This document shows positions 3,986 to 49,199 of a stretch of 49,809 nt of DNA, piece by piece. Position 1 is the first letter of the stretch. Each line of letters opens with the position of its first letter. Origin of the DNA: a virus (lineage: Duplodnaviria; Heunggongvirae; Uroviricota; Caudoviricetes); the IMG/VR virus record IMGVR_UViG_2663762603_000001. One strand, 5' to 3'. The position numbers and the translations under genes were made by a program. Under the pieces are notes generated by a model. That model did no database searches and was not told where the DNA came from. It worked only from the letters and a program-made list of their open reading frames with translations.

Positions 3986-4177
3986 TTAAAGACCTGCCGG
4001 GATTTCGTTATTATCCTGGTGAATAACTTTATCGACCGGGTAACAGTTACCGGGAATTTTCTGTTCGGTTGCTGCAGTCACACACTCCTGCATTGTCCTG
4101 TGAACACTGACTGCAATATCAACTGGCTCTCCGGAAACAAGAAAAACTGTCAGAACAAGTGCAAATGCTGTATTCAT
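3986..4177 (-). CDS. small secreted protein (predicted signal peptide), unknown function
   Basis: 63 aa from internal Met (MNTAFALVLTVFLVSG…); AAGGA about 8 nt upstream on minus strand; low-GC early-left region. Confidence 0.35.
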   Translation of the reverse strand: MNTAFALVLTVFLVSGEPVDIAVSVHRTMQECVTAATEQKIPGNCYPVDKVIHQDNNEIPAGL

Positions 4178-4362
4178 TGCCAGCATCCTTTTTGTATCGG
4201 ACGTAAACGGGCCAGCATTGAAAGAATGCATATTTTATTTAATAGCTCCCGTTCTTGTTTTCTCTTGTTAATGGCATCTTCAGTAAATACTGGGTTACTG
4301 ATAGTGACACCAATTTCAAAACAACCTTCAGACGTATTAACGTTTGGTAATAACGTTTTCAT
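4174..4362 (-). CDS. small hypothetical protein (kil/cIII-position)
   Basis: 62-aa ORF with GAGGA Shine-Dalgarno 8 nt upstream; stop overlaps start of downstream small gene. Confidence 0.35.
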   Translation of the reverse strand: MKTLLPNVNTSEGCFEIGVTISNPVFTEDAINKRKQERELLNKICILSMLARLRPIQKGCWQ

Positions 4363-4923
4363 TATCGCGTCCTCAACAATGAATTTTGTGATGCAGTGCC
4401 TGGTGCCTCCAGGTGACGTTAACTAGTTAACAATTAACGCCGGATACAGAGAATCCACCCATAACACTGTTTTTGGTTTTAACTGTTCCGCGTGCGCTCA
4501 GCCGCATTCACCACATCACAAAATTCACTTTAAAAAGGGCGGCAGAGCAGTCACGGAGTAAAACTGATACCGCCAAACGTCACCAGAAAATTGATAACAG
4601 AGGGCGTTGCAGCGGGGTTGTCACTTAAGCGTATGGTCAACCTGACAACCCGGTGTCCTCAACGGGGAAGGAATAACCCCGCCATACTTACCGCCGCGCC
4701 ATTTCGCGGATTGCCACAACCGGAAACGCACGGTCGACGAAAATTTAACGACAGGCTATCTATGAACCAGCTACCTCGCCGGGCGCTTTCGCGTTATGGT
4801 CTGACTTTTCAGGGAAATATCCTTTCAGTAAACTGTCAGTGCCGGATGCTCACCCGTGTCCGGCGCACGCACTCCACCTCACCCGTGGAGAACTCCTTAA
4901 TCACCAACCCTCAGGAGGGTGAA

Positions 4924-5199: not shown

Positions 5200-5509
5200 T
5201 GCTTTTTGTTGCAAAGTAATTTTCAAGGGGTTCTATTCGAATCCCTTTCTTTTTCATTAACAAGCCAAACCCCTTATCAATGATGTCCATTAGATCCAGG
5301 AAGTATTTTTCATGTAAATCCTGGTTATCAGAGAGCTGCTTCTCTTCGTACAGCCCGATAAAGGCTCGGCGTACGTTACCGGATATATTGTCGATGGTTT
5401 CTTTTTCTACGGTACTCAGGTCAAGAGTCGCCAGTTGAGAGCGAACCACATTCGATGCCATTTCCTGGAATGGTACTGGTAAATCTTTAAATTCCATCGT
5501 CAACCTCAT
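5177..5509 (-). CDS. hypothetical early-left protein
   Basis: 110-aa ORF; start overlaps stop of upstream gene (TGATG), suggesting translational coupling. Confidence 0.5.
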   Translation of the reverse strand: MRLTMEFKDLPVPFQEMASNVVRSQLATLDLSTVEKETIDNISGNVRRAFIGLYEEKQLSDNQDLHEKYFLDLMDIIDKGFGLLMKKKGIRIEPLENYFATKSINSFDSK

Positions 5510-5661
5510 CAGTCAGTGTTTCTGGTTAACCAGCGACGCGCGCCAGCTTCAGTTTTAAACGTTTTGCTTCTGGTATATGTCATCGCGGTAAACGTGCCGT
5601 CCTGGTTGGGAAACACGCCGCATACCAGAGATTCGTTGTTGCCAAGCTCGATAGTATCCAT
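5509..5661 (-). CDS. small hypothetical protein, first gene of leftward early operon
   Basis: 50 aa from internal ATG at 5659-5661 (MDTIELGNNESLV…) with GAGG SD; the longer track ORF would run through the O_L-like palindrome. Confidence 0.4.
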   Translation of the reverse strand: MDTIELGNNESLVCGVFPNQDGTFTAMTYTRSKTFKTEAGARRWLTRNTD

Positions 5662-5776
5662 GCTGACCTCATTTCCCCTTAACGCCGGGGTAGCGGAACT
5701 GTTTGCGGAGAACACCGTGCGGTGTGTTGATGGAGGTAATTTAGTTTTCTCATTATTTTTCGTCAAGGTTTTTTGA

Positions 5777-5788
5777 TGAGAAAACTCA
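5777..5788. promoter_or_regulatory. operator-like palindrome TGAGAAAACTCA (O_L-like)
   Basis: perfect 12-bp inverted repeat just downstream of repressor gene stop; same core as the palindrome at 6311-6326. Confidence 0.5.
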
Positions 5789-5853
5789 AGTGTTGGCGCA
5801 AGATAAAGCCAATACATTGAAATGTAAGGCTTTAAAATTTTGTGAAGGGATGA

Positions 5854-6261
5854 TTATTGATGCTTGTTGCGTTTGCGAGCCTCTAATAGCTCGGTGAACA
5901 GGCGATTAAAATTCTCAACGCGGGCGCGGAGTTCGCTGAGTTGTGCTTGTTGCTCTGATTTAGGAAGTGCGCGATACAAACGCAGCATCTCTAACTCATC
6001 TTCCGATAAGTCTAGGGTACTATCGAGTGAAACAGGGGGAGCTGGTGTTTTGTCCTCGTCGCCAAACAGTATCCAGGTTGGTGAACATTGCAATACCTCG
6101 GCGAGGCGATGCAAATTTTGCCCGCGCGGGGCTGTATGGTCACTTTCCCATAATGAAATTGATGAGCCAGATACGCCAGCAGCTTTGCTTAAACCGTTTT
6201 GACTTAAGCCTACCTGCTTACGTCTTTCTCTAATGCGTTGACCTAAAGTTTTCTCGTTCAT
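5854..6261 (-). CDS. prophage immunity repressor, HTH XRE-family, RacR/DicA-like (no S24 peptidase domain)
   Basis: 135 aa from ATG at 6259-6261; helix-turn-helix segment LSQNGLSKAAGVSGSSISLWE; divergent from Cro-like gene; no Ser-Lys autocleavage module seen. Confidence 0.8.
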   Translation of the reverse strand: MNEKTLGQRIRERRKQVGLSQNGLSKAAGVSGSSISLWESDHTAPRGQNLHRLAEVLQCSPTWILFGDEDKTPAPPVSLDSTLDLSEDELEMLRLYRALPKSEQQAQLSELRARVENFNRLFTELLEARKRNKHQ

Positions 6262-6283
6262 ATTTAGATATCTTAATAATCCT

Positions 6284-6326
6284 TGACTTGAGATTCCTTG
6301 AGTGATTAGCATTGAGAAAACTCAAT
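6284..6326 (+). promoter_or_regulatory. pR-like promoter (-35 TTGACT, -10 TAGCAT, 17-bp spacer) overlapping 16-bp operator palindrome ATTGAGAAAACTCAAT
   Basis: consensus -35 at 6284-6289; palindrome 6311-6326 overlaps -10/+1; additional TTGAG half-sites upstream. Confidence 0.5.
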
Positions 6327-6338
6327 ATTGGAGGTGCG

Positions 6339-6566
6339 ATGTTTAAATCAGACGTAATTAATTTTTACGGTACGAAAGCCAAAGTAGCGAAAGCTGCTGG
6401 CGTTGACCCATCTGCTGTTTCTCAATGGCAAGAGCTAGTTCCTGAAGGTCGCGCGATGCGTCTACAGGAGGCATCTGGCGGCGAGCTTCTGTATGATCCC
6501 AAGGTTTATGACGAATATCGTAAGACGAAGCGGGCGGGGCGGTTGAACAATGAAAATCACTCCTGA
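6339..6566 (+). CDS. Cro-like / YdaS-like small HTH regulator
   Basis: 75 aa from ATG 6339 preceded by GGAGG; divergent from repressor with 77-bp operator region between. Confidence 0.7.
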   Translation: MFKSDVINFYGTKAKVAKAAGVDPSAVSQWQELVPEGRAMRLQEASGGELLYDPKVYDEYRKTKRAGRLNNENHS

Positions 6567-7071
6567 ACAGGCTCGTGAGGCTCTGGATGCCTGGATATGT
6601 CGACCAGGAATGACACAGGAGCAGGCGACGATATTAATCACTGAAGCATTCTGGGCTTTGAAAGAGCGCCCGAACATCGATGTTCAGCGTGTCACAGATG
6701 AAGGTGGCGCGGTTGATCAGCGAGCGCTTGGCGTTAATCGAGTGAAGATATTCGAACGCTGGAAGGCTATCGACACCAGGGATAAGCGTGAAAAGTTCAC
6801 GGCGCTAGTGCCTGCAATTATGGAGGCTATCCGGATTAATGATTTCAGGTTGTATCGTGAAATTAGTGACGGAAAAAGCATCACGTACATGATCGCCGGG
6901 TTAAACAAAGAATATGGCGATGTGGTGGAGTCCGGACTGCTTTTTGCTGATCCTGCCGTAGTGGATCGTGAAACTGACGAACTTATAGAAAAAGCAATTG
7001 CTTTCAAACTTGCGTATCGACAGCAATACCAACAAAAAGCTGGATGGAATTATGAGCCTTCTTTTTGCTGA
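6550..7071 (+). CDS. cII-position early regulatory protein (YdaT-like, tentative)
   Basis: 173-aa ORF overlapping cro-like stop; position corresponds to ydaT of Rac-type prophages. Confidence 0.45.
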   Translation: MKITPEQAREALDAWICRPGMTQEQATILITEAFWALKERPNIDVQRVTDEGGAVDQRALGVNRVKIFERWKAIDTRDKREKFTALVPAIMEAIRINDFRLYREISDGKSITYMIAGLNKEYGDVVESGLLFADPAVVDRETDELIEKAIAFKLAYRQQYQQKAGWNYEPSFC

Positions 7072-8732: not shown

Positions 8733-9632
8733 ATGATTGATCCACTTATTAGAAACTTACAGAGTGATATTGCACTACTCCAGCTTTATATCGCGCAACG
8801 CAAACAGGCAGGCTTTCATGACATGGAAAGAATAATTGAGTCATTGACCATCTTTATGTTTCGCGCGCTGAAAATGGGTGAACTGGTAAACATGAATCAG
8901 ATTAAAGTTAATTTTCCCGCCATTGATTTAGCTGATAATAAAAACATGATAGCAGTTCAAGTTACTACGAATGCAAGTCCAGCAAAAATTAAAAAAACTA
9001 TCGAATCTTTTGAGGAAACAAATGAAATAGGAGAGAGTCTGAAAGATAAATACTCTACTTTATATATTTTTGGTTTTTGTAAAGCCTCAAGATACCTAAC
9101 TCCAAGTTATTGTAAAATAATCGACCCCAGCTATTTCGTGAATGAACTTTGCGATAAAGCAGATGAAGATATGGTCCAGGATATGATTGACGCCATTCGA
9201 CGCCATCATGATTATACATCATTACATCCATGGAGTGATAAAGATTCACTCGAAATTATACTCAATATTATTAATCGCAATGCAATAAAACATCGGATGA
9301 GTTGCGAAGGCAGTCTGTCTGATATGCTCACTGGTTTAAAAGAAATTAATGAAGTAATTACAAAAGGAACAATTCAACGTAAGCAACGTTCAAAATCGAT
9401 ATCTGACTTCAAAGATCAAAGCATGGTGAAATTTATGAGAGGTGTAATGGATGATTTGTCTGTTATTCAAGCCATAGTGAACAAATCTAAAGTTAACCAA
9501 GGTGATATGGTTTATATAAGCCATGAAGATATGATTAATATTGATAAATTAAAAGCTAAAATAGCAAGTGATTCATCAGAGATTGCAAGGCTAAATAATA
9601 TTGATATAACACTAAATGTTGTTGATTTATAA
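8733..9632 (+). CDS. SMEK-domain-like protein (candidate defence/abortive-infection protein)
   Basis: 299-aa ORF with AAGGA SD; N-terminal segment …NFPAIDLADNKNMIAVQVTT… resembles recalled SMEK-domain proteins; low-GC island. Confidence 0.6.
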   Translation: MIDPLIRNLQSDIALLQLYIAQRKQAGFHDMERIIESLTIFMFRALKMGELVNMNQIKVNFPAIDLADNKNMIAVQVTTNASPAKIKKTIESFEETNEIGESLKDKYSTLYIFGFCKASRYLTPSYCKIIDPSYFVNELCDKADEDMVQDMIDAIRRHHDYTSLHPWSDKDSLEIILNIINRNAIKHRMSCEGSLSDMLTGLKEINEVITKGTIQRKQRSKSISDFKDQSMVKFMRGVMDDLSVIQAIVNKSKVNQGDMVYISHEDMINIDKLKAKIASDSSEIARLNNIDITLNVVDL

Positions 9633-9946
9633 TTGTCGATTTAGCAAAACAGAGAATGCTTTGAAAGTTTCACCGAGAAATATTTATTGTGAACCTCCTT
9701 ATTGTTTATCGACTTTTACTCTCCGCTCATTGCAGTACTGTCGGAGAAGGCTACTATGTACAAGAAGCAGCTAACATAAGCGAGCATCACTATTGATATT
9801 AGGAAGAGTATATAAAAACTTCATGCTGAACCTTACAAAAGTAGATAAACCGGCAATGGCCTAAGTGGCAGGGTCATGTTGATCCGGCACTGCCGAGCTA
9901 ATAATTAACAAGCAAATCACTCTTTCTAATAATTTGTTGAAATAAA

Positions 9947-10606
9947 CTAAATATGTATATGTTTACCAACAACCACATATGAACTACCTGCTTTGCTCCA
10001 TGATTTTATTATTTCTAAATTATTATCTGAGCATATTTTACTTACAGTATCCACATCTAATAAACCATAGTAGAAAGCATTACGAGAGTTTTGGTATATA
10101 TACCCATGCAAATGTTTAATACCGCTCTCGTACCTCTTGAAATAAGAACTTTTGTATTGATTGACAATCAGTGCTTCACCATCACTCTTTAATAATTCTC
10201 TAATCGCACTGAGGACTTTGTGAATTGTGGATTCACATGGAATTGCGGAAAGCACGTTTGCGCAAAGTATGAAATCATAATGATTTGTTATTTTATCTAT
10301 ATTTTCATAAGAAACAATATTAGCATTCTTATAGTTATTTATCACGTAATCTGGAATCGTGGTTTGTACACCTCTGATAATTTGCACTCTTTCTAGTTGT
10401 CTTCTGGAATCTAAAAATGTCACAGTTTCAAATTTATTTACTAATTGTTCTGAATATCTAAGTTTTCCACATCCAAAATCAAGGGCATTGCCATTTTTAT
10501 TAGTGCTTTCAATCTGTTTACAGAGATAGTTAGATGGCATAGTGTGCGGTTTCGCTGCATTTTCTGAACGTATGTTTATTCCATTTATTTTGTAATTCAA
10601 AATCAA
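9947..10606 (-). CDS. class I SAM-dependent methyltransferase (not a DPPY/NPPY DNA MTase)
   Basis: 219-aa ORF; motif I LDFGCGKLRY, post-I VTFLDS, DFILCANVL; 6-bp gap from upstream membrane-protein gene. Confidence 0.7.
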   Translation of the reverse strand: MILNYKINGINIRSENAAKPHTMPSNYLCKQIESTNKNGNALDFGCGKLRYSEQLVNKFETVTFLDSRRQLERVQIIRGVQTTIPDYVINNYKNANIVSYENIDKITNHYDFILCANVLSAIPCESTIHKVLSAIRELLKSDGEALIVNQYKSSYFKRYESGIKHLHGYIYQNSRNAFYYGLLDVDTVSKICSDNNLEIIKSWSKAGSSYVVVGKHIHI

Positions 10607-10612
10607 CCTCGT

Positions 10613-11320
10613 TTAAAAAATATTGTTATTGTTAAAGAATTCTTTTATTTTGCTATCAGGTATTTGTCTTACTTGGCTTTCTGTTCTTGGTTTAACTGAT
10701 GCTATGAAAATAAGGAAGTCAAATGCGACAAGAGAAATAATCCACAACCAAAGATTAATTAAAGAGCCAGTAACAGAGAATATATTTGTTAATTTGGCGA
10801 TACTTATTATTAAAATAGTAACAAATGCGATTACTGTATGTTCAAAGAAAACCCAAAAGTAATAAACTTTGTTCCAGAAAAGTTCAACGTAATGTTTGTC
10901 TTTTAACTCTTTAACTTCTGGGTAATACAGTTTACTCATTACCTTGTGAGATTCATCAGTAGTTAATTTTCTCGTAACGCCTGCAATTTTTGCTAATGGT
11001 TTAATAATTAAATGACTATCCCACATCTTCCTTATTCCAATAATTTTTGCTACATTATTATGTAGATCTAAAGCTCCACTAATTACTGACCAAAAAACTG
11101 AAGATGCAATTGGTAATATGCCAAAGGTTAATATCCATTTAATAAATTCCTCGTAGTCTTTAACGGGGGGGATATACTTGGCATTAATGCCAACCAATGG
11201 CATGTAGCCATAAATGACTAATGATAGGTAAAATATAAATGTAGTAATAAAAGTCGCCTTATGGAGCATAGGCAACATTTCATTATAACTCTTTGGTGGT
11301 TCTAACATTTTACTCTCCAA
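10613..11320 (-). CDS. integral membrane protein (about 4 TM helices), unknown function
   Basis: 235-aa ORF with four long hydrophobic segments; first gene of two-gene operon with the methyltransferase. Confidence 0.65.
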   Translation of the reverse strand: MESKMLEPPKSYNEMLPMLHKATFITTFIFYLSLVIYGYMPLVGINAKYIPPVKDYEEFIKWILTFGILPIASSVFWSVISGALDLHNNVAKIIGIRKMWDSHLIIKPLAKIAGVTRKLTTDESHKVMSKLYYPEVKELKDKHYVELFWNKVYYFWVFFEHTVIAFVTILIISIAKLTNIFSVTGSLINLWLWIISLVAFDFLIFIASVKPRTESQVRQIPDSKIKEFFNNNNIF

Positions 11321-12050: not shown

Positions 12051-12206
12051 ATGAAGCAGCAAAAGGCGATGCTAATCGCCCTGATCGTCATCTGTTTAAC
12101 CGTCATAGTGACGGCACTGGTAACGAGGAAAGACCTCTGCGAGGTACGAATCCGAACCGGCCAGACGGAGGTCGCTGTCTTCACAGCTTACGAACCTGAG
12201 GAGTAA
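12051..12206 (+). CDS. hok: Hok/Gef-family membrane toxin (type I toxin)
   Basis: 51 aa MKQQKAMLIALIVICLTVIVTALVTRKDLCEVRIRTGQTEVAVFTAYEPEE, close to Hok consensus; in-frame upstream extension from 11994 resembles mok-type overlap; structured 3' region. Confidence 0.85.
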   Translation: MKQQKAMLIALIVICLTVIVTALVTRKDLCEVRIRTGQTEVAVFTAYEPEE

Positions 12207-12276
12207 GAGACCCGGCGAGGGAGAAATCCCTCGCCACCTCTGATGTGGCAGGCATCCTCAACGCACCCGCACTTAA

Positions 12277-12300
12277 CCCGCTTCGGCGGGTTTTTGTTTT
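12277..12300 (+). terminator. rho-independent terminator of hok transcript
   Basis: CCCGCTTCGGCGGG hairpin followed by TTTTTGTTTTT. Confidence 0.7.
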
Positions 12301-12422
12301 TATTTTCAACGCGTTTGAAGTTCTGGACGGTGCCGGAATAGAATCAAAAATACTTAAGTAGCGCGCAGGGATAAGAGGGATGGTCCCTTAAAGGGGAGAG
12401 CTAATTATCCGGAAGGATTCTG

Positions 12423-12674
12423 ATGATGAACATCGAAGAACTGCGTAAAATTTTTTGTGAAGATGGCCTCTATGCTGTGTGCGTTGAAAATGGAAATATT
12501 GTTAGTCATTACCGCATTGTGTGTTTGCAAAAAAATGGGGCTGCGTTAATTAATTTTGTGGATGCCCGAGTGACGGACGGATTTATCTTGCGCGACGGTG
12601 AGTTTGTCACTTCATTACAGGCATTGAAAGAGATCGGAATAAAAGCTGGCTTTTCTGCTTTTTCAGAAGAATAA
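12423..12674 (+). CDS. small conserved prophage protein (possibly Rem-like)
   Basis: 83-aa ORF with GGAAGGA SD; position between hok and DUF968 gene as in Qin-type prophages. Confidence 0.5.
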   Translation: MMNIEELRKIFCEDGLYAVCVENGNIVSHYRIVCLQKNGAALINFVDARVTDGFILRDGEFVTSLQALKEIGIKAGFSAFSEE

Positions 12675-15846: not shown

Positions 15847-16896
15847 ATGCTTAATACTGTAAAAATATCCAGTTGTGAGTTAATCAACGCCGACTGCCTG
15901 GAATTTATCCGGTCGTTACCCGAAAATTCTGTTGACCTGATAGTCACGGACCCGCCGTACTTTAAAGTGAAGCCTGAGGGCTGGGATAACCAGTGGAAGG
16001 GCGACGATGATTACCTGAAGTGGCTGGACCAGTGTCTGGCGCAGTTCTGGCGGGTGCTGAAACCTGCCGGAAGTCTTTACCTGTTCTGTGGTCATCGCCT
16101 GGCATCTGATATCGAAATCATGATGCGTGAACGCTTCAGTGTGCTGAACCATATTATCTGGGCGAAGCCGTCCGGACGCTGGAACGGATGCAACAAGGAA
16201 AGCCTGCGGGCGTATTTCCCCGCCACAGAGCGCATTCTGTTCGCGGAACATTATCAGGGGCCGTATCGTCCGAAAGATGCCGGGTATGCGGCGAAGGGCA
16301 GTGCACTGAAACAGCATGTGATGGCCCCGCTGATTTCTTACTTTCGTGATGCGCGCGCGGCCCTGGGGATAACGGCAAAACAGATTGCAGATGCCACAGG
16401 AAAGAAAAACATGGTGTCGCACTGGTTCAGTGCCAGTCAGTGGCAGCTACCGAACGAAAGCGATTATCTGAAATTACAGTCGCTGTTTGCCCGGGTGGCA
16501 GAAGAGAAACATCAGCGCGGTGAACTGGAAAAGCCCCACCACCAGCTGGTGGATACGTATACGTCACTGAACCGGCAGTATGTGGAGCTGCAGAGTGAAT
16601 ATAAGCATCTGCGGCGGTATTTTGGTGTGACGGCGCAGGTGCCGTACACGGATGTGTGGACACATAAACCGGTGCAGTTCTATCCCGGGAAACATCCGTG
16701 CGAAAAACCGGCAGAAATGCTGCAGCAGATAATCAGCGCAAGCAGTCGTCCGGGTGACCTGGTTGCAGATTTTTTTATGGGCTCAGGTTCAACGGTAAAA
16801 GCGGCACTGGCGCTCGGGCGTCGTGCGATTGGCGTTGAGCTGGAGACCGGACGTTTTGAGCAGACAGTCAGGGAAGTTCAGGATTTAATCGTTTGA
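15847..16896 (+). CDS. orphan N6-adenine DNA methyltransferase (DPPY motif)
   Basis: 349 aa; VTDPPY near N-terminus, FxGxG SAM motif (DFFMGSGST) near C-terminus; no adjacent restriction endonuclease. Confidence 0.85.
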   Translation: MLNTVKISSCELINADCLEFIRSLPENSVDLIVTDPPYFKVKPEGWDNQWKGDDDYLKWLDQCLAQFWRVLKPAGSLYLFCGHRLASDIEIMMRERFSVLNHIIWAKPSGRWNGCNKESLRAYFPATERILFAEHYQGPYRPKDAGYAAKGSALKQHVMAPLISYFRDARAALGITAKQIADATGKKNMVSHWFSASQWQLPNESDYLKLQSLFARVAEEKHQRGELEKPHHQLVDTYTSLNRQYVELQSEYKHLRRYFGVTAQVPYTDVWTHKPVQFYPGKHPCEKPAEMLQQIISASSRPGDLVADFFMGSGSTVKAALALGRRAIGVELETGRFEQTVREVQDLIV

Positions 16897-16945: not shown

Positions 16946-17021
16946 GGCCCTTTAGCTCAGTGGTGAGAGCGAGCGACTCATAATCGCCAGGTCGCTGGTT
17001 CAAATCCAGCAAGGGCCACCA
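16946..17021 (+). tRNA. ileZ: tRNA-Ile2 (anticodon CAU, ileX/ileZ-like)
   Basis: 76 nt with 7-bp acceptor stem GGCCCTT/AAGGGCC, anticodon loop CTCATAA, GGTTCAAATCC T-arm, CCA end; near-identical to recalled E. coli ileX. Confidence 0.85.
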
Positions 17022-17030
17022 TATCACATA

Positions 17031-17107
17031 CCACCATTAGCTCATCGGGATAGAGCGCCAGCCTTCGAAGCTGGTTGCGCGGGGTTCGAGTTCTCGATGG
17101 CGGTCCA
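17031..17107 (+). tRNA. tRNA-Arg (anticodon UCG as read)
   Basis: cloverleaf with D-stem GCTC/GAGC, anticodon stem CCAGC/GCTGG, loop CTTCGAA, T-loop TTCGAGT, CCA end; one acceptor mismatch and G-U pairs in T-stem. Confidence 0.65.
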
Positions 17108-17363: not shown

Positions 17364-17560
17364 ATTGTCTGGCTGCCGGAGAATTTGTTAAAAATTACAT
17401 CGCATGGTGAATCCCCCTCAGCGGCGGGGCATCTGGCAAAGTGTATGATCCAGAGAACATGCAAATTCAGTAGACAGGCTGAATTTACCGGGAGGCCCCT
17501 GGCACCATGCGACAGACAGAAATTAGGCTATACTTCAGCCCCTCTCCGGAGGGGCTTTTC
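17364..17560 (+). repeat. copy 1 of ~200-bp diverged direct repeat ending in AGCCCCTC-TCCG-GAGGGGCT hairpin + T-tract
   Basis: shares ATTGTCTGGC…TTTGTTAAAAA…CGCATGGTGAATCCCCCT…GAATTCACCGGGAGGC…GGCACCATGC…AGCCCCTCTCCGGAGGGGCT with copy 2. Confidence 0.7.
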
Positions 17561-35252: not shown

Positions 35253-37806
35253 TCTTGTTATTGACCTGAGTCTGGATGCTGTCCGTTTCGATGAGCAGAT
35301 GAGCCGGGTAAGGCGTCATTTTTCAGGTCTGGATACCGACGCCAGAAAAACCGCCAGTGCTGTTGAACAGGGCCTGAGCCGCCAGGCGCTGGCTGCACAA
35401 AAAGCCGGGATTTCCGTCGGGCAGTATAAAGCGGCCATGCGAACCCTGCCCGCACAGTTTACGGATATCGCCACGCAGCTTGCAGGTGGTCAGAATCCCT
35501 GGCTGATCCTGCTGCAACAGGGCGGTCAGGTGAAGGACTCCTTCGGCGGGATGATCCCCATGTTCAGGGGGCTTGCCGGTGCGATCACCCTGCCGATGGT
35601 CGGGGTCACCTCGCTGGCGGTGGCGACAGGTGCGCTGGTGTACGCCTGGTACCAGGGAGATTCCACGCTTTCAGCGTTTAATAAAACCCTGGTTCTTTCC
35701 GGTAATCAGTCCGGACTGACTGCCGATCGTATGCTGACTCTCTCAAGAGCCGGGCAGGCAGCAGGGCTGACGTTTAACCAGGCGAGAGAGTCACTGGCAG
35801 CCCTGGTGAATGCCGGTGTGCGTGGTGGTGAACAGTTTGATGCCATCAACCAGAGTGTCGCGCGTTTTGCGTCTGCATCCGGTGTGGAGGTGGATAAAGT
35901 CGCTGAAGCCTTCGGGAAGCTGACCACTGACCCGACGTCGGGACTGATGGCGATGGCGCGCCAGTTCCGTAACGTGACGGCAGAGCAGATTGCGTATGTT
36001 GCACAGCTGCAGCGTTCCGGAGACGAGGCCGGGGCATTGCAGGCGGCGAACGATATCGCCACGAAAGGCTTTGATGAGCAGACCCGTCGCCTGAAAGAAA
36101 ACATGGGAACACTGGAGACCTGGGCGGATAAAACAGGGAAGGCATTCAAATCGATGTGGGATGCCATTCTGGATATCGGTCGTCCTGAATCCTCAGCGGA
36201 TATGCTCGCCAGTGCGCAGAAGGCATTTGATGAGGCGGATAAAAAATGGCAGTGGTACCAGAGTCGGAGCCAGCGCCGGGGAAAGACCTCCTCTTTTCGT
36301 GCGAACCTTCAGGGGGCATGGGATGACCGGGAAAATGCCCGTCTGGGTCTGGCAGCGGCCACGCTGCAGTCGGATATGGAAAAAGCCGGTGAACTGGCGG
36401 CAAGGGACCGGGCTGAGCGTGAGGCGTCACAGCTGAAGTATACCGGAGAGGCGCAGAAGGCGTATGAGCGCCTGCAGACGCCGCTGGATAAATATACCGC
36501 CCGTCAGAAAGAGCTGAATAAGGCCCTGAAAGACGGAAAAATCCTGCAGGCGGATTACAACACGCTGATGGCGTCGGCAAAAAAGGATTATGAATCGACG
36601 CTGAAAAAGCCGTCAGGTGTGAAGGTGTCTGCCGGTGAGCGCCAGGAAGACCGGGCGCATGCAGCCATGCTGGCGCTTGAAACCGAGCTCAGGACGCTGG
36701 AAAAACACAGCGGTGTGAATGAGAAAATCAGCCAGCAGCGCCGGGATTTATGGGAAGCGGAAAATCAGTATGTGGTCCTGAAAGAGGCCGCCACGAAACG
36801 GCAGTTATCTGAGCAGGAAAAATCCCTGCTGGCTCATGAGAAAGAGACGCTGGAGTACAAACGCCAGCTGGCTGAGCTGGGAGACAAGATTGAACACCAG
36901 AAGCGGCTGAATGAGCTGGCACAGCAGGCGGCGCGGTTTGAACAGCAGCAGAGCGCGAAGCAGGCGGCAATCAGCGCAAAAGCCCGCGGCCTCACTGACC
37001 GTCAGGCGCAGCGGGAGTCGGAAGAGCAGCGCCTTCGTGAGGTGTACGGTGATAATCCGGCTGCGCTGGCGAAGGCCACATCTGCACTGAAGAACACCTG
37101 GTCTGCGGAGGAGCAGCTTCGTGGAAGCTGGATGGCCGGGATGAAGTCCGGCTGGGGCGAGTGGGCGGAAAGTGCGACGGACAGTTTTTCGCAGGTTAAA
37201 AACGCGGCCACGCAGACCTTTGACGGTATTGCACAGAATATGGCGGCGATGCTGACCGGCAGCGAACAGAACTGGCGTGGTTTCACCCGTTCTGTGCTGT
37301 CCATGCTGACAGAGATTTTTCTGAAGCAGGCGATGGTGGGGATAGTCGGGAGTATCGGCAGCGCCATTGGCGGTGCTTTCGGTGGTGGTGCGTCTGCCTC
37401 CACGGGGACGGCCATTCAGGCTGCGGCGGCGAACTTCCATTTCGCGACCGGGGGATTTACGGGGACGGGGGGGAAATATGAACCTGCGGGGATTGTTCAT
37501 CGCGGGGAGTTTGTCTTCACGAAGGAGGCGACCAGCCGGATTGGCGTGGGAAATCTTTACCGGCTGATGCGCGGCTATGCCACCGGCGGTTATGTCGGTG
37601 GCACCGGAAGTCCGGCGCAAATGCGGCGTTCAGAGGGTATCAGATTTGAGCAGAACAACAACGTGGTGATTCAGAACGACGGTACGAATGGTCTGCCAGG
37701 TCCACAGATGCTGAAGGCAGTGTATGACATGGCCCGCAAGGGTGCCCGTGATGAAATTCAGGCACAGATGCGCGATGGTGGTCTGTTCTCCGGAGGTGGA
37801 CGATGA
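35233..37806 (+). CDS. H: tail tape measure protein H
   Basis: 857 aa, coiled-coil-rich, follows G-T. Confidence 0.9.
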   Translation: MSQPVGDLVIDLSLDAVRFDEQMSRVRRHFSGLDTDARKTASAVEQGLSRQALAAQKAGISVGQYKAAMRTLPAQFTDIATQLAGGQNPWLILLQQGGQVKDSFGGMIPMFRGLAGAITLPMVGVTSLAVATGALVYAWYQGDSTLSAFNKTLVLSGNQSGLTADRMLTLSRAGQAAGLTFNQARESLAALVNAGVRGGEQFDAINQSVARFASASGVEVDKVAEAFGKLTTDPTSGLMAMARQFRNVTAEQIAYVAQLQRSGDEAGALQAANDIATKGFDEQTRRLKENMGTLETWADKTGKAFKSMWDAILDIGRPESSADMLASAQKAFDEADKKWQWYQSRSQRRGKTSSFRANLQGAWDDRENARLGLAAATLQSDMEKAGELAARDRAEREASQLKYTGEAQKAYERLQTPLDKYTARQKELNKALKDGKILQADYNTLMASAKKDYESTLKKPSGVKVSAGERQEDRAHAAMLALETELRTLEKHSGVNEKISQQRRDLWEAENQYVVLKEAATKRQLSEQEKSLLAHEKETLEYKRQLAELGDKIEHQKRLNELAQQAARFEQQQSAKQAAISAKARGLTDRQAQRESEEQRLREVYGDNPAALAKATSALKNTWSAEEQLRGSWMAGMKSGWGEWAESATDSFSQVKNAATQTFDGIAQNMAAMLTGSEQNWRGFTRSVLSMLTEIFLKQAMVGIVGSIGSAIGGAFGGGASASTGTAIQAAAANFHFATGGFTGTGGKYEPAGIVHRGEFVFTKEATSRIGVGNLYRLMRGYATGGYVGGTGSPAQMRRSEGIRFEQNNNVVIQNDGTNGLPGPQMLKAVYDMARKGARDEIQAQMRDGGLFSGGGR

Positions 37807-38132
37807 AGACCTTCCACTGGAAAGTGAAACCCGGTATGGATGTGGCTTCAGCCCCTTCCGTCAGGAAAGTGCGCTTTGGTGATGGCTATTCCCAGCGAGC
37901 GCCTGCCGGGCTGAATGCCGACCTGAAAACGTACAGCGTGACGCTTTCTGTTCCCCGTTGGGAGGCCACGGCGCTTGAGTCGTTTCTGGCTGAGCACGGG
38001 GGCTGGAAATCCTTTCTGTGGACGCCGCCTTATGAGTGGCGGCAGATAAAGGTGACCTGCGCAAAATGGTCGTCGCGGGTCAGTATGCTGCGTGTTGAGT
38101 TCAGCGCAGAGTTTGAACAGGTGGTGAACTGA
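37803..38132 (+). CDS. M: minor tail protein M
   Basis: 109 aa, lambda M-like. Confidence 0.85.
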   Translation: MKTFHWKVKPGMDVASAPSVRKVRFGDGYSQRAPAGLNADLKTYSVTLSVPRWEATALESFLAEHGGWKSFLWTPPYEWRQIKVTCAKWSSRVSMLRVEFSAEFEQVVN

Positions 38133-47892: not shown

Positions 47893-48476
47893 TGGCATTC
47901 AGAATGAGTGAACAAGCACGGACCATAAAAATTTATAATCTGCTGGCCGGAACTAATGAATTTATTGGTGAAGGTGACGCATATATTCCGCCTCATACAG
48001 GTCTGCCAGCAAACAGTACCGATATTGCACCACCAGATATTCCTGCTGGCTTTGTGGCTGTTTTCAACAGTGATGAGGCATCGTGGCATCTCGTTGAAGA
48101 CCATCGGGGTAAAACGGTTTATGACGTAGCGTCAGGGGACGAGTTATTTATTTCTGAACTCGGTCCGTTACCGGAAAATGTTACCTGGTTATCGCCGGAA
48201 GGGGAGTTTCAGAAGTGGAACGGCACAGCCTGGGTGAAGGATACGGAAGCAGAAAAAATGTTCCGGATCCGGGAGGCGGAAGAAACAAAAAACAACCTGA
48301 TGCAGGTAGCCAGTGAGCATATTGCGCCGCTTCAGGATGCTGCAGATCTGGAAATTGCAACGGAGGAAGAAACCTCATTGCTGGAAGCCTGGAAAAAGTA
48401 TCGGGTGTTGCTGAACCGTGTTGATACATCAACTGCACCTGATATTGAGTGGCCTACGAACCCTGTCAGGGAGTAA
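47892..48476 (+). CDS. tfa: tail fiber assembly protein Tfa
   Basis: 194 aa; conserved C-terminus …[52 protein letters not shown]. Confidence 0.85.
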
Positions 48477-48490
48477 TCATTGGGATTATG

Positions 48491-48523
48491 CCGCAGCACG
48501 TCTTAAGCAAGAACGTGCTGCGG
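48491..48523. terminator. hairpin between convergent tfa and methyltransferase genes (bidirectional terminator candidate)
   Basis: CCGCAGCACGT-cttaagcaag-AACGTGCTGCGG inverted repeat; a related hairpin recurs at about 49541-49574. Confidence 0.5.
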
Positions 48524-48530
48524 TTGGATG

Positions 48531-49199
48531 CTATTTTTTCCCTGAAGCGGAAAACATTACTACAGTACCTTGAACCTTGGTTTTAACATTCTCGAAATGC
48601 TCTGAGAGTATATGTGTTAAGCCTTCTTCGGAATCTTTTGTGTTTGAAAAGATGCCTTTCTGATTGTAAATGCGCATCAGTTTTTGACCGAAGCTATTGT
48701 GCACAACTCCATCGCCAAGAATTGTGGCTCCGTATAGAGTTCCATCGTCAGTTAAGGCCTGCGCCGCATTGCGTATTACACAGCTTTTTGTAGATATATT
48801 TCCAGGCAGGCAGTGAAGAAGGTAAAACATGGAAATGGAATCAAATTGACCATGTAACGCCGCGGGATAAGGTTCAAAAACATCATGGCTAATTTTATGT
48901 TTAATTTTTGATTCCCCAGCCCTTGTAGATGCCGCGTTCAGGCTAGCTTCGTTCAAATCCATTAAAGATATCAGACTACTCTCAGGTACGTGAGTAAGGT
49001 AAAACCCAGTTCCAACACCAATATCCAGATGGTTGTTACCTACATGTTCCAGATAGTGTGGAAGAAGGTGTTCCTTTGTAGGACATCCCCATGCAAGCCG
49101 ATTTGATACTCCCAAAACCCACCAGTCATAAAGCTTTAGGGTAAGTGGTGTGTAAATTTTAGCCCCATCATCTGTGTTTTTTTTCATTGATTTCACCAT
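48531..49199 (-). CDS. class I SAM-dependent methyltransferase (moron in tail-fiber region)
   Basis: 222-aa ORF; motif I LDIGVGTGFY; flanked by duplicated tfa 3' segments. Confidence 0.7.
   Translation of the reverse strand: MVKSMKKNTDDGAKIYTPLTLKLYDWWVLGVSNRLAWGCPTKEHLLPHYLEHVGNNHLDIGVGTGFYLTHVPESSLISLMDLNEASLNAASTRAGESKIKHKISHDVFEPYPAALHGQFDSISMFYLLHCLPGNISTKSCVIRNAAQALTDDGTLYGATILGDGVVHNSFGQKLMRIYNQKGIFSNTKDSEEGLTHILSEHFENVKTKVQGTVVMFSASGKK

What the first reader, a model, noticed from the sequence alone, without database searches (positions are those of the whole stretch)
5777..6326. Repressor gene bracketed by two copies of a TGAGAAAACTCA palindrome; repressor lacks an autocleavage domain
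A 16-bp perfect palindrome ATTGAGAAAACTCAAT overlaps the -10 of a consensus-like rightward promoter (TTGACT, 17 bp, TAGCAT) between the divergent repressor and cro-like genes. The same 12-bp core recurs at 5777-5788 just beyond the repressor stop, where a leftward promoter would sit. This mirrors lambda O_R/O_L logic. The repressor is short and shows no LexA-like S24 domain, so induction probably requires an antirepressor or another route.
Basis: partly seen in the sequence, partly recalled or inferred. Interest (0 to 1): 0.45.

Follow-up and report, generated by a model that had tools for sequence, protein, structure and literature searches.

The report
DicA/DicC prophage immunity switch operators
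This is the ordinary lysogeny switch of a Qin/mEp460-type lambdoid prophage of E. coli: a DicA-family repressor, its repeated operator sites, and a Rem antirepressor gene 6 kb away, a system already described in the literature.

Summary
The repeated motif is real. The shuffle expectation is 0.16. Two details are wrong: the 16-mer is a 6-bp-arm inverted repeat around a non-symmetric AAAA, not a perfect palindrome, and the promoter spacer is 18 bp, not 17.

The repressor (5854-6261, minus strand, 135 aa) is a full-length DicA. The divergent gene is DicC (P22 Cro family). ydfA, DicF RNA and dicB lie downstream. The N-terminal domain matches the P22 c2 DNA-binding domain and the C-terminal part is all-helical, with no S24 peptidase signal.

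Ten DicA loci from several genera show the same layout. One palindrome overlaps the -10 of the cro-side promoter, and two related sites flank the -35 of the leftward promoter. The palindrome sequence changes with the recognition helix.

The predicted antirepressor exists: rem (12423-12674) is 95% identical to K-12 Rem, which was shown in 2023 to relieve DicA repression. It has no LexA box. The same immunity region is 99% identical in the functional phage mEp460_ev081 and occurs in 797 of 5426 complete E. coli genomes.

The parts
5854..6261 (-). dicA-type repressor gene (135 aa). N-terminal P22 c2-like HTH domain, short linker, helical C-terminal domain.
   Evidence: NCBIfam NF007257 DicA 239 bits, 1-135/135. 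Pfam HTH_3. PDB 1ADR/2R1J P22 c2 NTD, E about 1e-15. AF2 pLDDT 86, all helices. Foldseek 3JXB TMt 0.95. PGAP CDS at the same coordinates in a near-identical genome.
6339..6566 (+). dicC-type cro-like gene (75 aa)
   Evidence: NCBIfam NF007282 DicC 165 bits, 1-75/75. Pfam P22_Cro 59 bits. The N-terminal ~32 aa diverge from K-12 DicC and the last 44 aa are nearly identical.
6310..6327 (.). Main right operator (equivalent of K-12 Oc): CATTGAG-AAAA-CTCAATA. It overlaps the last bases of the -10 and the start region of the dicC promoter.
   Evidence: 13/14 to the symmetric consensus, the best site in the window. Invariant in E. coli variants and two Buttiauxella species. Same position as K-12 Oc, which has genetic evidence for DicA binding.
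6283..6312 (+). Rightward promoter for dicC (P_R equivalent): TTGACT-18-TAGCAT
   Evidence: Same layout as the K-12 dicC promoter, whose start site was mapped by 5'RACE.
6286..6303 (.). Weak candidate middle operator (Om equivalent): ACTTGAG-ATTC-CTTGAGT. Only the left half-site is good. It overlaps the -35.
   Evidence: Better palindromes occupy this position in the Klebsiella, Salmonella and Shimwellia loci. Low confidence here.
6261..6278 (.). Candidate third right operator (Oa equivalent) abutting the dicA start codon: TATTTAG-ATAT-CTTAATA
   Evidence: 10/14 to the consensus. Invariant in all same-class loci and kept in other recognition-helix classes. In K-12, Oa and Om did not bind DicA in an in vivo assay, so its function is uncertain.
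5774..5791 (.). Left operator 2: TGATGAG-AAAA-CTCAAGT (core 5777-5788), just upstream of the -35 of the leftward promoter
   Evidence: 11/12 core columns invariant across loci. K-12 and other genera have their own palindrome variant at the same position.
5738..5755 (.). Left operator 1: TAATGAG-AAAA-CTAAATT on the - strand (core 5741-5752). It overlaps the spacer and -10 of the leftward promoter.
   Evidence: Core invariant across E. coli and Buttiauxella loci.
5738..5766 (-). Leftward promoter (dicBp / P_L equivalent): TTGACG-17-TAAATT, driving ydfA, DicF and dicB
   Evidence: Aligns with K-12 TTGACC-17-TAATCT, and the sequence downstream of it is nearly identical to K-12. K-12 dicBp lies upstream of ydfA and is repressed by DicA.
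5509..5661 (-). ydfA-like gene (DUF1391), first gene of the leftward operon
   Evidence: Pfam PF07151 97.8 bits. PGAP annotation.
4537..4588 (-). DicF small RNA
   Evidence: Rfam RF00039 76.7 bits, full length.
4174..4362 (-). dicB cell-division inhibitor gene
   Evidence: ORF. PGAP 'cell division inhibition protein DicB' at the same coordinates.
6550..7071 (+). YdaT-family gene in the cII position
   Evidence: Pfam YdaT_toxin 26 bits. PGAP annotation. The same gene order is seen in all other DicA loci looked up.
12423..12674 (+). rem, the candidate antirepressor of DicA (83 aa)
   Evidence: 79/83 identical to K-12 Rem. PGAP 'protein Rem'. K-12 Rem derepresses dicBp 165-fold (PMC10448788).
12315..12344 (+). 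Promoter-like site upstream of rem (TTGAAG-18-TAGAAT), after the hokD terminator at 12275-12292. No LexA box.
   Evidence: The 230 bp upstream of rem are 229/230 identical to K-12. No CTGT-N8-ACAG or CTG-N10-CAG between 12206 and 12422.

Best explanation
The region is the immunity (lysis/lysogeny) switch of an apparently intact Qin/mEp460-type lambdoid prophage of E. coli.

A 135-aa DicA-family repressor is inferred to bind as a dimer, through a P22 c2-like helix-turn-helix domain, to 18-bp operators. Each operator has two 7-bp half-sites (consensus about YATTGAG) around a 4-bp A/T centre.

One strong operator (6310-6327) overlaps the -10 and start of the rightward dicC promoter. Binding there blocks the cro-like/YdaT/replication operon. 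By analogy with K-12 Oc, it probably also stimulates dicA's own weak promoter.

Two further operators (5738-5755 and 5774-5791) bracket the -35 and cover the -10 of the leftward promoter. Binding there silences ydfA-DicF-dicB-recE.

DicC plays the Cro role, so the switch is bistable.

The repressor's C-terminal part is a short helical domain and not an S24 peptidase, so RecA cannot trigger self-cleavage. Derepression instead comes from the small protein Rem, encoded 6 kb away in the nin-like region, which antagonises DicA. Stochastic switching also occurs.

This allele is heteroimmune to K-12 Qin. The HTH of DicA, the N-terminus of DicC and all operators are swapped together, while the DicA C-terminal domain, the DicC C-terminus, the leftward transcript leader and rem are conserved.

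Shown here: the sequences, domains, positions, conservation and co-variation. Shown elsewhere for the K-12 homologue: DicA action at Oc, repression of dicC and dicB, and Rem antirepression. Inferred: binding of this allele to these particular sites, the dimer state, and Rem acting on this allele.
For: Family assignment: DicA and DicC NCBIfam models match full length, far above their cut-offs. DicF RNA, ydfA/DUF1391, and dicB and rem in PGAP complete the gene set.

Motif: 3 copies at up to 1 mismatch against 0.16 expected, all within 590 bp.

Promoters: the only two promoter-like sites in 5500-6500 are the two that the motifs overlap.

Layout: it matches K-12 position for position, with a different palindrome. 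The sequence becomes nearly identical to K-12 right after the leftward promoter.

Conservation: across loci of the same recognition-helix class, including two Buttiauxella species with 74-76% protein identity, 35/36 operator-core columns are invariant against 81/233 other intergenic columns (Fisher p = 1e-13).

Co-variation: in 10 loci covering at least 6 recognition-helix variants (E. coli, Buttiauxella, Citrobacter, Klebsiella, Salmonella, Pantoea, Shimwellia), the palindrome sequence changes with the helix while the positions stay fixed.

Structure: the NTD matches P22 c2 NTD-operator complexes (48% identity, rmsd 0.8-1.0 A, TMt 0.95). P22 operators have the same 18-bp geometry with a 4-bp centre (my own knowledge).

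No S24. All 120 listed homologues (most about 135 aa) carry only HTH families.

Literature: Oc overlaps the dicC -10, single-base changes abolish DicA action, and DicA activates dicA (PMC3441716). DicA lacks the Ala-Gly site and Rem derepresses dicBp (PMC10448788). The related Gifsy repressors are released from DNA by antirepressors (PMC3121763).
Against: There is no binding or expression data for this allele. All functional evidence is from the K-12 allele, which shares only 44% identity in the DNA-binding domain.

The two left sites are each imperfect in one half: CTCAAGT (5785-5791, in OL2) and CTAAATT (- strand, 5738-5744, in OL1).

The extra right-hand candidates (Oa, Om) are weak. Their K-12 counterparts did not bind DicA in vivo, so the right operator may be functionally single rather than tripartite as in lambda.

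Whether Rem, 95% identical to the K-12 protein, acts on this heteroimmune DicA is untested. It rests on the conserved C-terminal domain (65% identity) and on co-occurrence in phage mEp460_ev081.

The signal that turns on rem is unknown, and no LexA box is present.
Confidence: 0.87

Rival explanations
1. The repeated sites are recognised mainly by DicC (the Cro-like protein) or by the YdaT/CII-like protein, and DicA uses other sequences.
For: The DicC N-terminus also differs between the K-12 and window alleles, so it co-varies with the palindromes just as the DicA HTH does. In lambda and P22 the Cro protein shares the repressor's operators (my own knowledge). Co-variation alone therefore cannot separate the two proteins.
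Against: In K-12, loss of dicA abolishes repression through Oc, and supplying DicA restores it (PMC3441716). The sites have the 7+4+7 geometry of operators bound by the P22 c2 NTD, to which this DicA NTD is 48% identical. Shared use by DicA and DicC is the likeliest outcome, not exclusive use by DicC.
Confidence: 0.07
2. The prophage is induced by a route that does not involve Rem. Candidates are stochastic flipping of the DicA/DicC bistable switch, temperature or nucleoid-protein effects on DicA binding, or another unidentified antirepressor. In this reading rem is irrelevant to this allele.
For: In K-12, spontaneous dicBp induction in about 1-2% of cells is independent of rem and recA, and urea or heat also induce it (PMC10448788). 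DicA binds Oc less well at 37 C and is antagonised by CnuK9E/H-NS (PMC3441716). There is no LexA box at rem. The DNA-binding domain differs from K-12.
Against: rem is kept at 95% protein identity, with a 229/230 identical upstream region. It is present together with this dicA allele in the functional phage mEp460_ev081 (PMC10448788). The Gifsy antirepressors act on heteroimmune repressors (PMC3121763).
Confidence: 0.2
3. The repressor is inactivated by RecA-stimulated self-cleavage, like lambda CI, P22 c2 and LexA.
For: The N-terminal domain is homologous to that of P22 c2, which is autocleavable.
Against: The protein is 135 aa. Residues 79-133 are predicted as three helices. There is no Peptidase_S24 hit even at E<=10, and no LexA/CI C-terminal-domain fold match. 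All listed homologues have the same short architecture. [quoted passage not shown]
Confidence: 0.01
4. The repeated 12-mer is a chance repeat or a recombination scar with no regulatory role.
For: Identical 12-mer pairs are common somewhere in 50 kb, and at up to 2 mismatches the motif count is at chance.
Against: Three near-exact copies lie within 590 bp against 0.16 expected. They overlap the only two promoter-like sites in the region. They are invariant in Buttiauxella while the flanks diverge. In other immunity classes a different palindrome replaces them at the same positions.
Confidence: 0.01

Closest known systems
DicA/DicC immunity region of the cryptic prophage Qin of E. coli K-12 (dicA, dicC, operator Oc, the dicB operon promoter, antirepressor Rem)
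   Same: The gene order is the same: dicB, DicF, ydfA, dicA, then dicC, ydaT-like gene and so on, with hokD-rem further along. The repressor has the same length and architecture (135 aa, 57% identity). One palindrome overlaps the dicC -10, and two sites lie at a TTGAC-type leftward promoter. Rem is 95% identical, with an identical upstream region.
   Different: The specificity differs. The operator here is YATTGAG-N4-CTCAATR, against TGTTAGT-N4-ACTAACA in K-12. The recognition helix is VSGSSISLWE against ISHVSVSQWE, and the DicC N-terminus differs too. The prophage here looks complete, from integrase to tail fibres, whereas Qin is a remnant.
Escherichia phage mEp460_ev081 (LR597641) and phage HannyBb (PP925841)
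   Same: The immunity region 5700-6400 is 99.0% and 98.9% identical. The neighbouring genes are the same, including exonuclease, dicB, rem and Q. mEp460_ev081 is cited in PMC10448788 as a functional phage carrying dicA, dicC, dicB, dicF and rem.
   Different: Essentially none in the switch. I found no paper that describes its operators.
Phage P22 c2 repressor and its operators
   Same: The N-terminal domain is homologous (48% identity, rmsd about 1 A to the DNA-bound structures 3JXB/2R1J). The operators are 18 bp, with 7-bp half-sites of the form xxTTxAG around a 4-bp centre. The partner protein belongs to the P22_Cro family.
   Different: P22 c2 is 216 aa, with an S24-type C-terminal domain and RecA-stimulated cleavage. 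This protein has a 55-residue helical C-terminal part instead.
Gifsy-1/-2/-3 prophage repressors (GfoR, GtgR, GfhR) and their antirepressors (Lemire et al. 2011)
   Same: The repressors are short (about 136 aa) and non-cleavable. They are inactivated by a small antirepressor encoded outside the immunity region, and DicA is listed as a member of the same group. The antirepressors can act on heteroimmune repressors (PMC3121763).
   Different: The Gifsy antirepressor genes are directly LexA-controlled. No LexA box precedes rem here or in K-12, and the inducing signal for Rem is unknown.
Lambda CI/Cro with tripartite O_R and O_L
   Same: Divergent repressor and cro genes, operators overlapping both early promoters, and bistability.
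   Different: Only one strong site lies on the right and two on the left (36 bp centre to centre), rather than three adjacent sites on each side. There is no S24 domain. Whether the switch shows cooperativity or long-range looping is unknown.

Membership tests
DicA-family prophage repressor (NCBIfam NF007257) | Full-length match to the family model above the curated cut-off | tested here: met
   239.1 bits against a cut-off of 101, residues 1-135 on model positions 1-135. 57% identity to K-12 DicA.
DicA-family prophage repressor (NCBIfam NF007257) | About 135 aa: an N-terminal Cro/C1-type HTH plus a short helical C-terminal domain, with no S24 peptidase domain and no Ala-Gly cleavage linker | tested here: met
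   Only HTH families at Pfam E<=10. The AF2 model is all-helical. There are no S24 fold hits. The literature describes DicA in the same terms.
DicA-family prophage repressor (NCBIfam NF007257) | Divergently transcribed dicC (P22_Cro family) on one side and a ydfA-DicF-dicB operon on the other | tested here: met
   DicC 165 bits, DUF1391, DicF 76.7 bits, dicB in PGAP.
DicA-family prophage repressor (NCBIfam NF007257) | An inverted-repeat operator overlapping the -10 of the dicC promoter, with related sites at the dicB-operon promoter | tested here: met
   Positions are shown. The layout parallels K-12 and 8 other loci. This is sequence-level evidence only.
DicA-family prophage repressor (NCBIfam NF007257) | The repressor physically binds these operators and represses both promoters | not testable with these tools
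   This needs EMSA, footprinting or reporter fusions. It has been demonstrated only for the K-12 allele.
Rem-type antirepressor control (Ragunathan & Vanderpool 2023) | A rem gene is present in the same prophage, outside the immunity region | tested here: met
   The ORF at 12423-12674 is 79/83 identical to K-12 Rem. PGAP names it 'protein Rem'.
Rem-type antirepressor control (Ragunathan & Vanderpool 2023) | Rem relieves repression by this DicA allele | not testable with these tools
   This is inferred from the conserved DicA C-terminal domain (51/78 identical) and from co-occurrence in phage mEp460_ev081.
Gifsy-type SOS-coupled antirepressor modules (Lemire et al. 2011) | The antirepressor gene is under direct LexA control (a LexA box at its promoter) | tested here: not met
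   There is no CTGT-N8-ACAG or CTG-N10-CAG between hokD and rem (12206-12422). The upstream region is identical to K-12, where the inducing signal is reported as unknown.
LexA/lambda CI/P22 c2-type autocleavable repressors (Peptidase S24) | A C-terminal S24 peptidase domain with a Ser/Lys dyad, and an Ala-Gly cleavage site in the linker | tested here: not met
   There is no S24 hit at E<=10. The C-terminal 55 residues are predicted helical. The structural matches cover only the HTH domain.
P22 c2 / 434-type HTH DNA-binding domain | A five-helix Cro/C1 fold superposable on the P22 c2 NTD, with an operator of two half-sites around a 4-bp non-contacted centre | tested here: met
   Sequence E = 8e-16 to 1ADR. 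Foldseek 3JXB/2R1J, rmsd 0.8-1.0 A, TMt 0.94-0.96. The operators fit 7+4+7. The contacts themselves were not tested.

The most novel reading that the evidence does not exclude
Rem may recognise the conserved helical C-terminal domain of DicA rather than the variable DNA-binding domain. If so, one Rem could induce all heteroimmune Qin/mEp460-type prophages in a cell at once. E. coli genomes carry up to 8 places matching this region. The trigger would be a non-SOS signal, since rem has no LexA box. An intact prophage like this one would then be a workable system for finding that unknown signal.
Probability: 0.35. Interest if true: 0.35.

Novelty: already known. Interest (0 to 1): 0.12.

Why it matters
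It matters little beyond annotation. The result shows that the window carries a complete-looking relative of the cryptic Qin prophage, with the mEp460 immunity type. It defines the operator sequence of that immunity type (YATTGAG-N4-CTCAATR), which I could not find in the searchable literature. That sequence could be used to predict superinfection-immunity groups among the roughly 15% of complete E. coli genomes that carry this allele. The open question it touches is what signal switches on Rem, since there is no SOS box. That question is already recognised in the 2023 paper.

Tried and rejected
- S24 / autocleavage: I looked with a permissive Pfam scan, an AlphaFold model and a fold search. 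All were negative.
- SOS-controlled antirepressor: the only strict LexA-box match in the window is at 37297, in tail genes. The relaxed pattern gives nothing near rem. PGAP annotation of a near-identical genome shows no Ant, KilA-N or Bro-N type antirepressor, only rem.
- More operator copies elsewhere in the prophage: there are none at up to 1 mismatch, and the 2-mismatch hits are at chance level.
- Prior description of this operator: a literature search for the operator sequence returned only unrelated human, fish and viral primer matches.
- Second full palindrome inside the right intergenic region: I found only the weak candidates Oa and Om.
- C-terminal domain relatives: the fold search gave only loose two-domain analogies such as SinR/SinI, with rmsd above 8 A, so I claim no specific relationship.
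- Position-wise comparison with NZ_CP019005: it gave 7494 mismatches, most of them beyond position 37952 and probably from an indel there. The first 20 kb differ at only 9 positions, so I used its annotation only for that part and for general context.

Full report
**Observation**

The 12-mer TGAGAAAACTCA is present exactly at 5777-5788 and 6313-6324. The 16-mer ATTGAGAAAACTCAAT is at 6311-6326. Its reverse complement is ATTGAGTTTTCTCAAT, so it is a 6-bp-arm inverted repeat around a non-symmetric AAAA and not a perfect palindrome. TTGACT (6283-6288) and TAGCAT (6307-6312) are separated by 18 bp, not 17.

Allowing one mismatch reveals a third, inverted copy at 5741-5752. That gives three copies against 0.16 expected, with none of 100 shuffles reaching three. 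At two mismatches the window-wide count is at chance, so the signal lies in three near-exact copies clustered within 590 bp.

**What the genes are**

- The repressor (5854-6261, minus strand, 135 aa) matches the NCBIfam DicA model end to end (239 bits, cut-off 101).
- The divergent 75-aa gene (6339-6566) matches DicC (165 bits) and Pfam P22_Cro.
- Downstream of the repressor lie a DUF1391/ydfA gene, DicF RNA (Rfam 76.7 bits, 4537-4588) and dicB.
- To the right lie a YdaT-family gene, replication genes, hok/sok and an 83-aa ORF (12423-12674). That ORF is 79/83 identical to K-12 Rem, and PGAP names it 'protein Rem' in a genome that differs from the window at only 9 positions over the first 20 kb.
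- Judged from the annotation of that near-identical genome, the window as a whole is a complete-looking lambdoid prophage running from integrase to tail fibres, pinQ and ydfK. It is an intact relative of the cryptic Qin prophage.

**Anatomy of the switch**

The only two promoter-like sites in 5500-6500 are TTGACT-18-TAGCAT (rightward, for dicC) and TTGACG-17-TAAATT (leftward, 5766-5738, for ydfA-DicF-dicB).

- The right-hand site, read as 7+4+7 (CATTGAG-AAAA-CTCAATA, 6310-6327), overlaps the end of the -10 and the start region.
- The newly found left site (5738-5755) covers the spacer and -10 of the leftward promoter.

K-12 Qin has the same layout with a different palindrome (TGTTAGT-CATA-ACTAACA at Oc, and two related sites around TTGACC-17-TAATCT). 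Immediately after the leftward promoter the two sequences become nearly identical.

Two weaker candidates lie in the right intergenic region: 6261-6278, abutting the dicA ATG, and 6286-6303. Their centres are 25 and 24 bp apart, which recalls the Oa/Om/Oc scheme proposed for K-12. In K-12, however, Oa and Om did not bind DicA in vivo, so I give them low weight.

**Comparative test**

I collected DicA loci from a species-level genome collection, from E. coli variants and from look-ups of homologues. They come from E. coli, Buttiauxella (two species), Citrobacter (two), Klebsiella, Salmonella, Pantoea and Shimwellia.

- Within the same recognition-helix class (VS[G/D]SSISLWE), the three operator cores are invariant in 35 of 36 columns, against 81 of 233 other intergenic columns (Fisher p = 1e-13). 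This class includes the Buttiauxella proteins, which are only 74-76% identical.
- Across classes, the palindrome changes with the helix. ISHVSVSQWE goes with TGTTAGT..ACTAACA, LTDVSISQWE with AATTAGC..GCTAATA, and VSHSTVSLWE with TGGTGAG..CTCACAA. The positions relative to dicC, the dicA stop codon and the leftward -35 stay fixed.

This is the pattern expected of repressor operators. It excludes a chance repeat.

**The repressor protein**

- The N-terminal 70 residues are homologous to the P22 c2 DNA-binding domain (E = 8e-16 to 1ADR).
- An AlphaFold model built on 37 homologues (pLDDT 86) superposes on c2-operator complexes at 0.8-1.0 A (TMt 0.95).
- P22 operators have the same 18-bp geometry with a 4-bp central spacer (my own knowledge).
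- Residues 79-133 are predicted as three helices.
- There is no Peptidase_S24 hit even at E<=10, and no LexA/CI C-terminal fold match.
- All 120 listed homologues, most about 135 aa long, carry only HTH families.

Against K-12 DicA, the DNA-binding part is 44% identical (39% over helix 2 to helix 3), while residues 56-135 are 65% identical. DicC likewise differs only in its N-terminal ~32 residues. The immunity specificity has therefore been exchanged as a cassette inside otherwise conserved genes.

**Comparison with what is known**

This system is published.

- DicA/DicC has been described as a lambdoid immunity locus. Yun et al. 2012 showed genetically that DicA acts through Oc, which overlaps the dicC -10. 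It represses dicC and activates dicA, and single-base changes abolish the effect (PMC3441716).
- Ragunathan & Vanderpool 2023 state that DicA is shorter than P22 c2 and lacks the Ala-Gly cleavage site. They showed that Rem raises dicBp expression 165-fold, and they documented rem- and recA-independent stochastic switching. They also noted that the functional phage mEp460_ev081 carries dicA, dicC, dicB, dicF and rem (PMC10448788).
- That phage's immunity region is 99.0% identical to this window.
- Lemire et al. 2011 established the antirepressor mechanism for the related Gifsy repressors, including action on heteroimmune repressors, and listed DicA as a relative (PMC3121763).
- This repressor N-terminus plus right operator occurs in 797 of 5426 complete E. 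coli genomes.

The antirepressor is not visibly SOS-controlled. There is no LexA box between hokD and rem. The 230 bp upstream of rem are 229/230 identical to K-12 and contain only a terminator and a sigma-70-like promoter. For K-12 the inducing signal is reported as unknown.

**Verdict**

The feature is a heteroimmune (mEp460-type) allele of the known DicA/DicC/Rem switch. The only apparently undocumented item is the operator sequence of this immunity type, for which a literature search found nothing. Interest is low.

Noticed in passing
window 5811-5830: A conserved block CAAYACATTGAAA (here with the inverted repeat TACATTGAAATGTA, 5815-5828) lies 25-40 nt downstream of the dicA stop codon and about 39 bp from the centre of left operator 2. 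It is kept in the E. coli variants and both Buttiauxella loci while neighbouring bases diverge. It contains one operator-like half-site (CATTGA). It could be a lone half-site, a weak dicA terminator hairpin, or a site for another protein.
   Followed up: partly
window 5854-6566, compared with L001 7621-8342: The mosaic breakpoints fall inside genes. The DicA residues 1-55, the DicC N-terminal ~32 residues and all operators differ from K-12. The DicA C-terminal domain, the last 44 residues of DicC and the leftward leader are nearly the same. The variable left operators are separated from the variable HTH by the conserved C-terminal coding region, so the two variable patches must travel together.
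   Followed up: partly
window 15857-15872: The LexA-box-like sequence CTGTAAAAATATCCAG lies at the very start of the DNA-methyltransferase gene (15847-16896), just downstream of the Q-like antiterminator. I did not test it for conservation or function.
   Followed up: no
window 8733-11308: A moron-like insert lies between the replication genes and hok/sok. It holds a SMEK-domain protein (8733-9632, + strand) and two minus-strand genes: a class I SAM methyltransferase (9947-10540) and a hypothetical membrane-like protein (10613-11308). mEp460_ev081 has a different gene at this position. It may be a defence cargo.
   Followed up: no
window 22653-24282: An 'sce7726 family' gene and a convergent 'beta family protein' gene sit between the lysis cassette and the terminase. 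This is another likely accessory or defence insert.
   Followed up: no
window 17372-17565, 17841-18029 and 18055-18390: There are two tandem copies of the sRNA family STnc100 (138 and 132 bits), next to an IraM-like anti-adapter gene. They follow two tRNA genes (Ile, Arg; 16946-17107).
   Followed up: no
window 48235-48433: There is an Rfam IS009 RNA match (224 bits, + strand), antisense to the 3' part of the minus-strand pinQ recombinase gene (48186-48776).
   Followed up: no
whole window: CTG-N10-CAG occurs 31 times against 12.0 +/- 3.4 in dinucleotide shuffles. The likely cause is the very common CTG (Leu) and CAG (Gln) codons, which dinucleotide shuffling does not preserve, rather than LexA sites.
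   Followed up: no
L002, L003, L007: Contigs carrying E. coli-type dicA loci are filed in the species-level genome collection as MAGs of Bacillota, Veillonella parvula and Collinsella. L002 and L003 match this window's repressor at 99% identity, and L007 carries a K-12-type allele. This is almost certainly binning contamination by Enterobacteriaceae prophage DNA.
   Followed up: no
window 6255-6263: dicA has no recognisable Shine-Dalgarno sequence. The conserved TTAAGATATCTAAAT element runs right up to its ATG, and a -10-like TAAGAT ends 8 nt before the A of the start codon. The dicA transcript may therefore be leaderless, like lambda cI from P_RM. This is inference only; the K-12 paper also found no obvious dicA promoter.
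   Followed up: no
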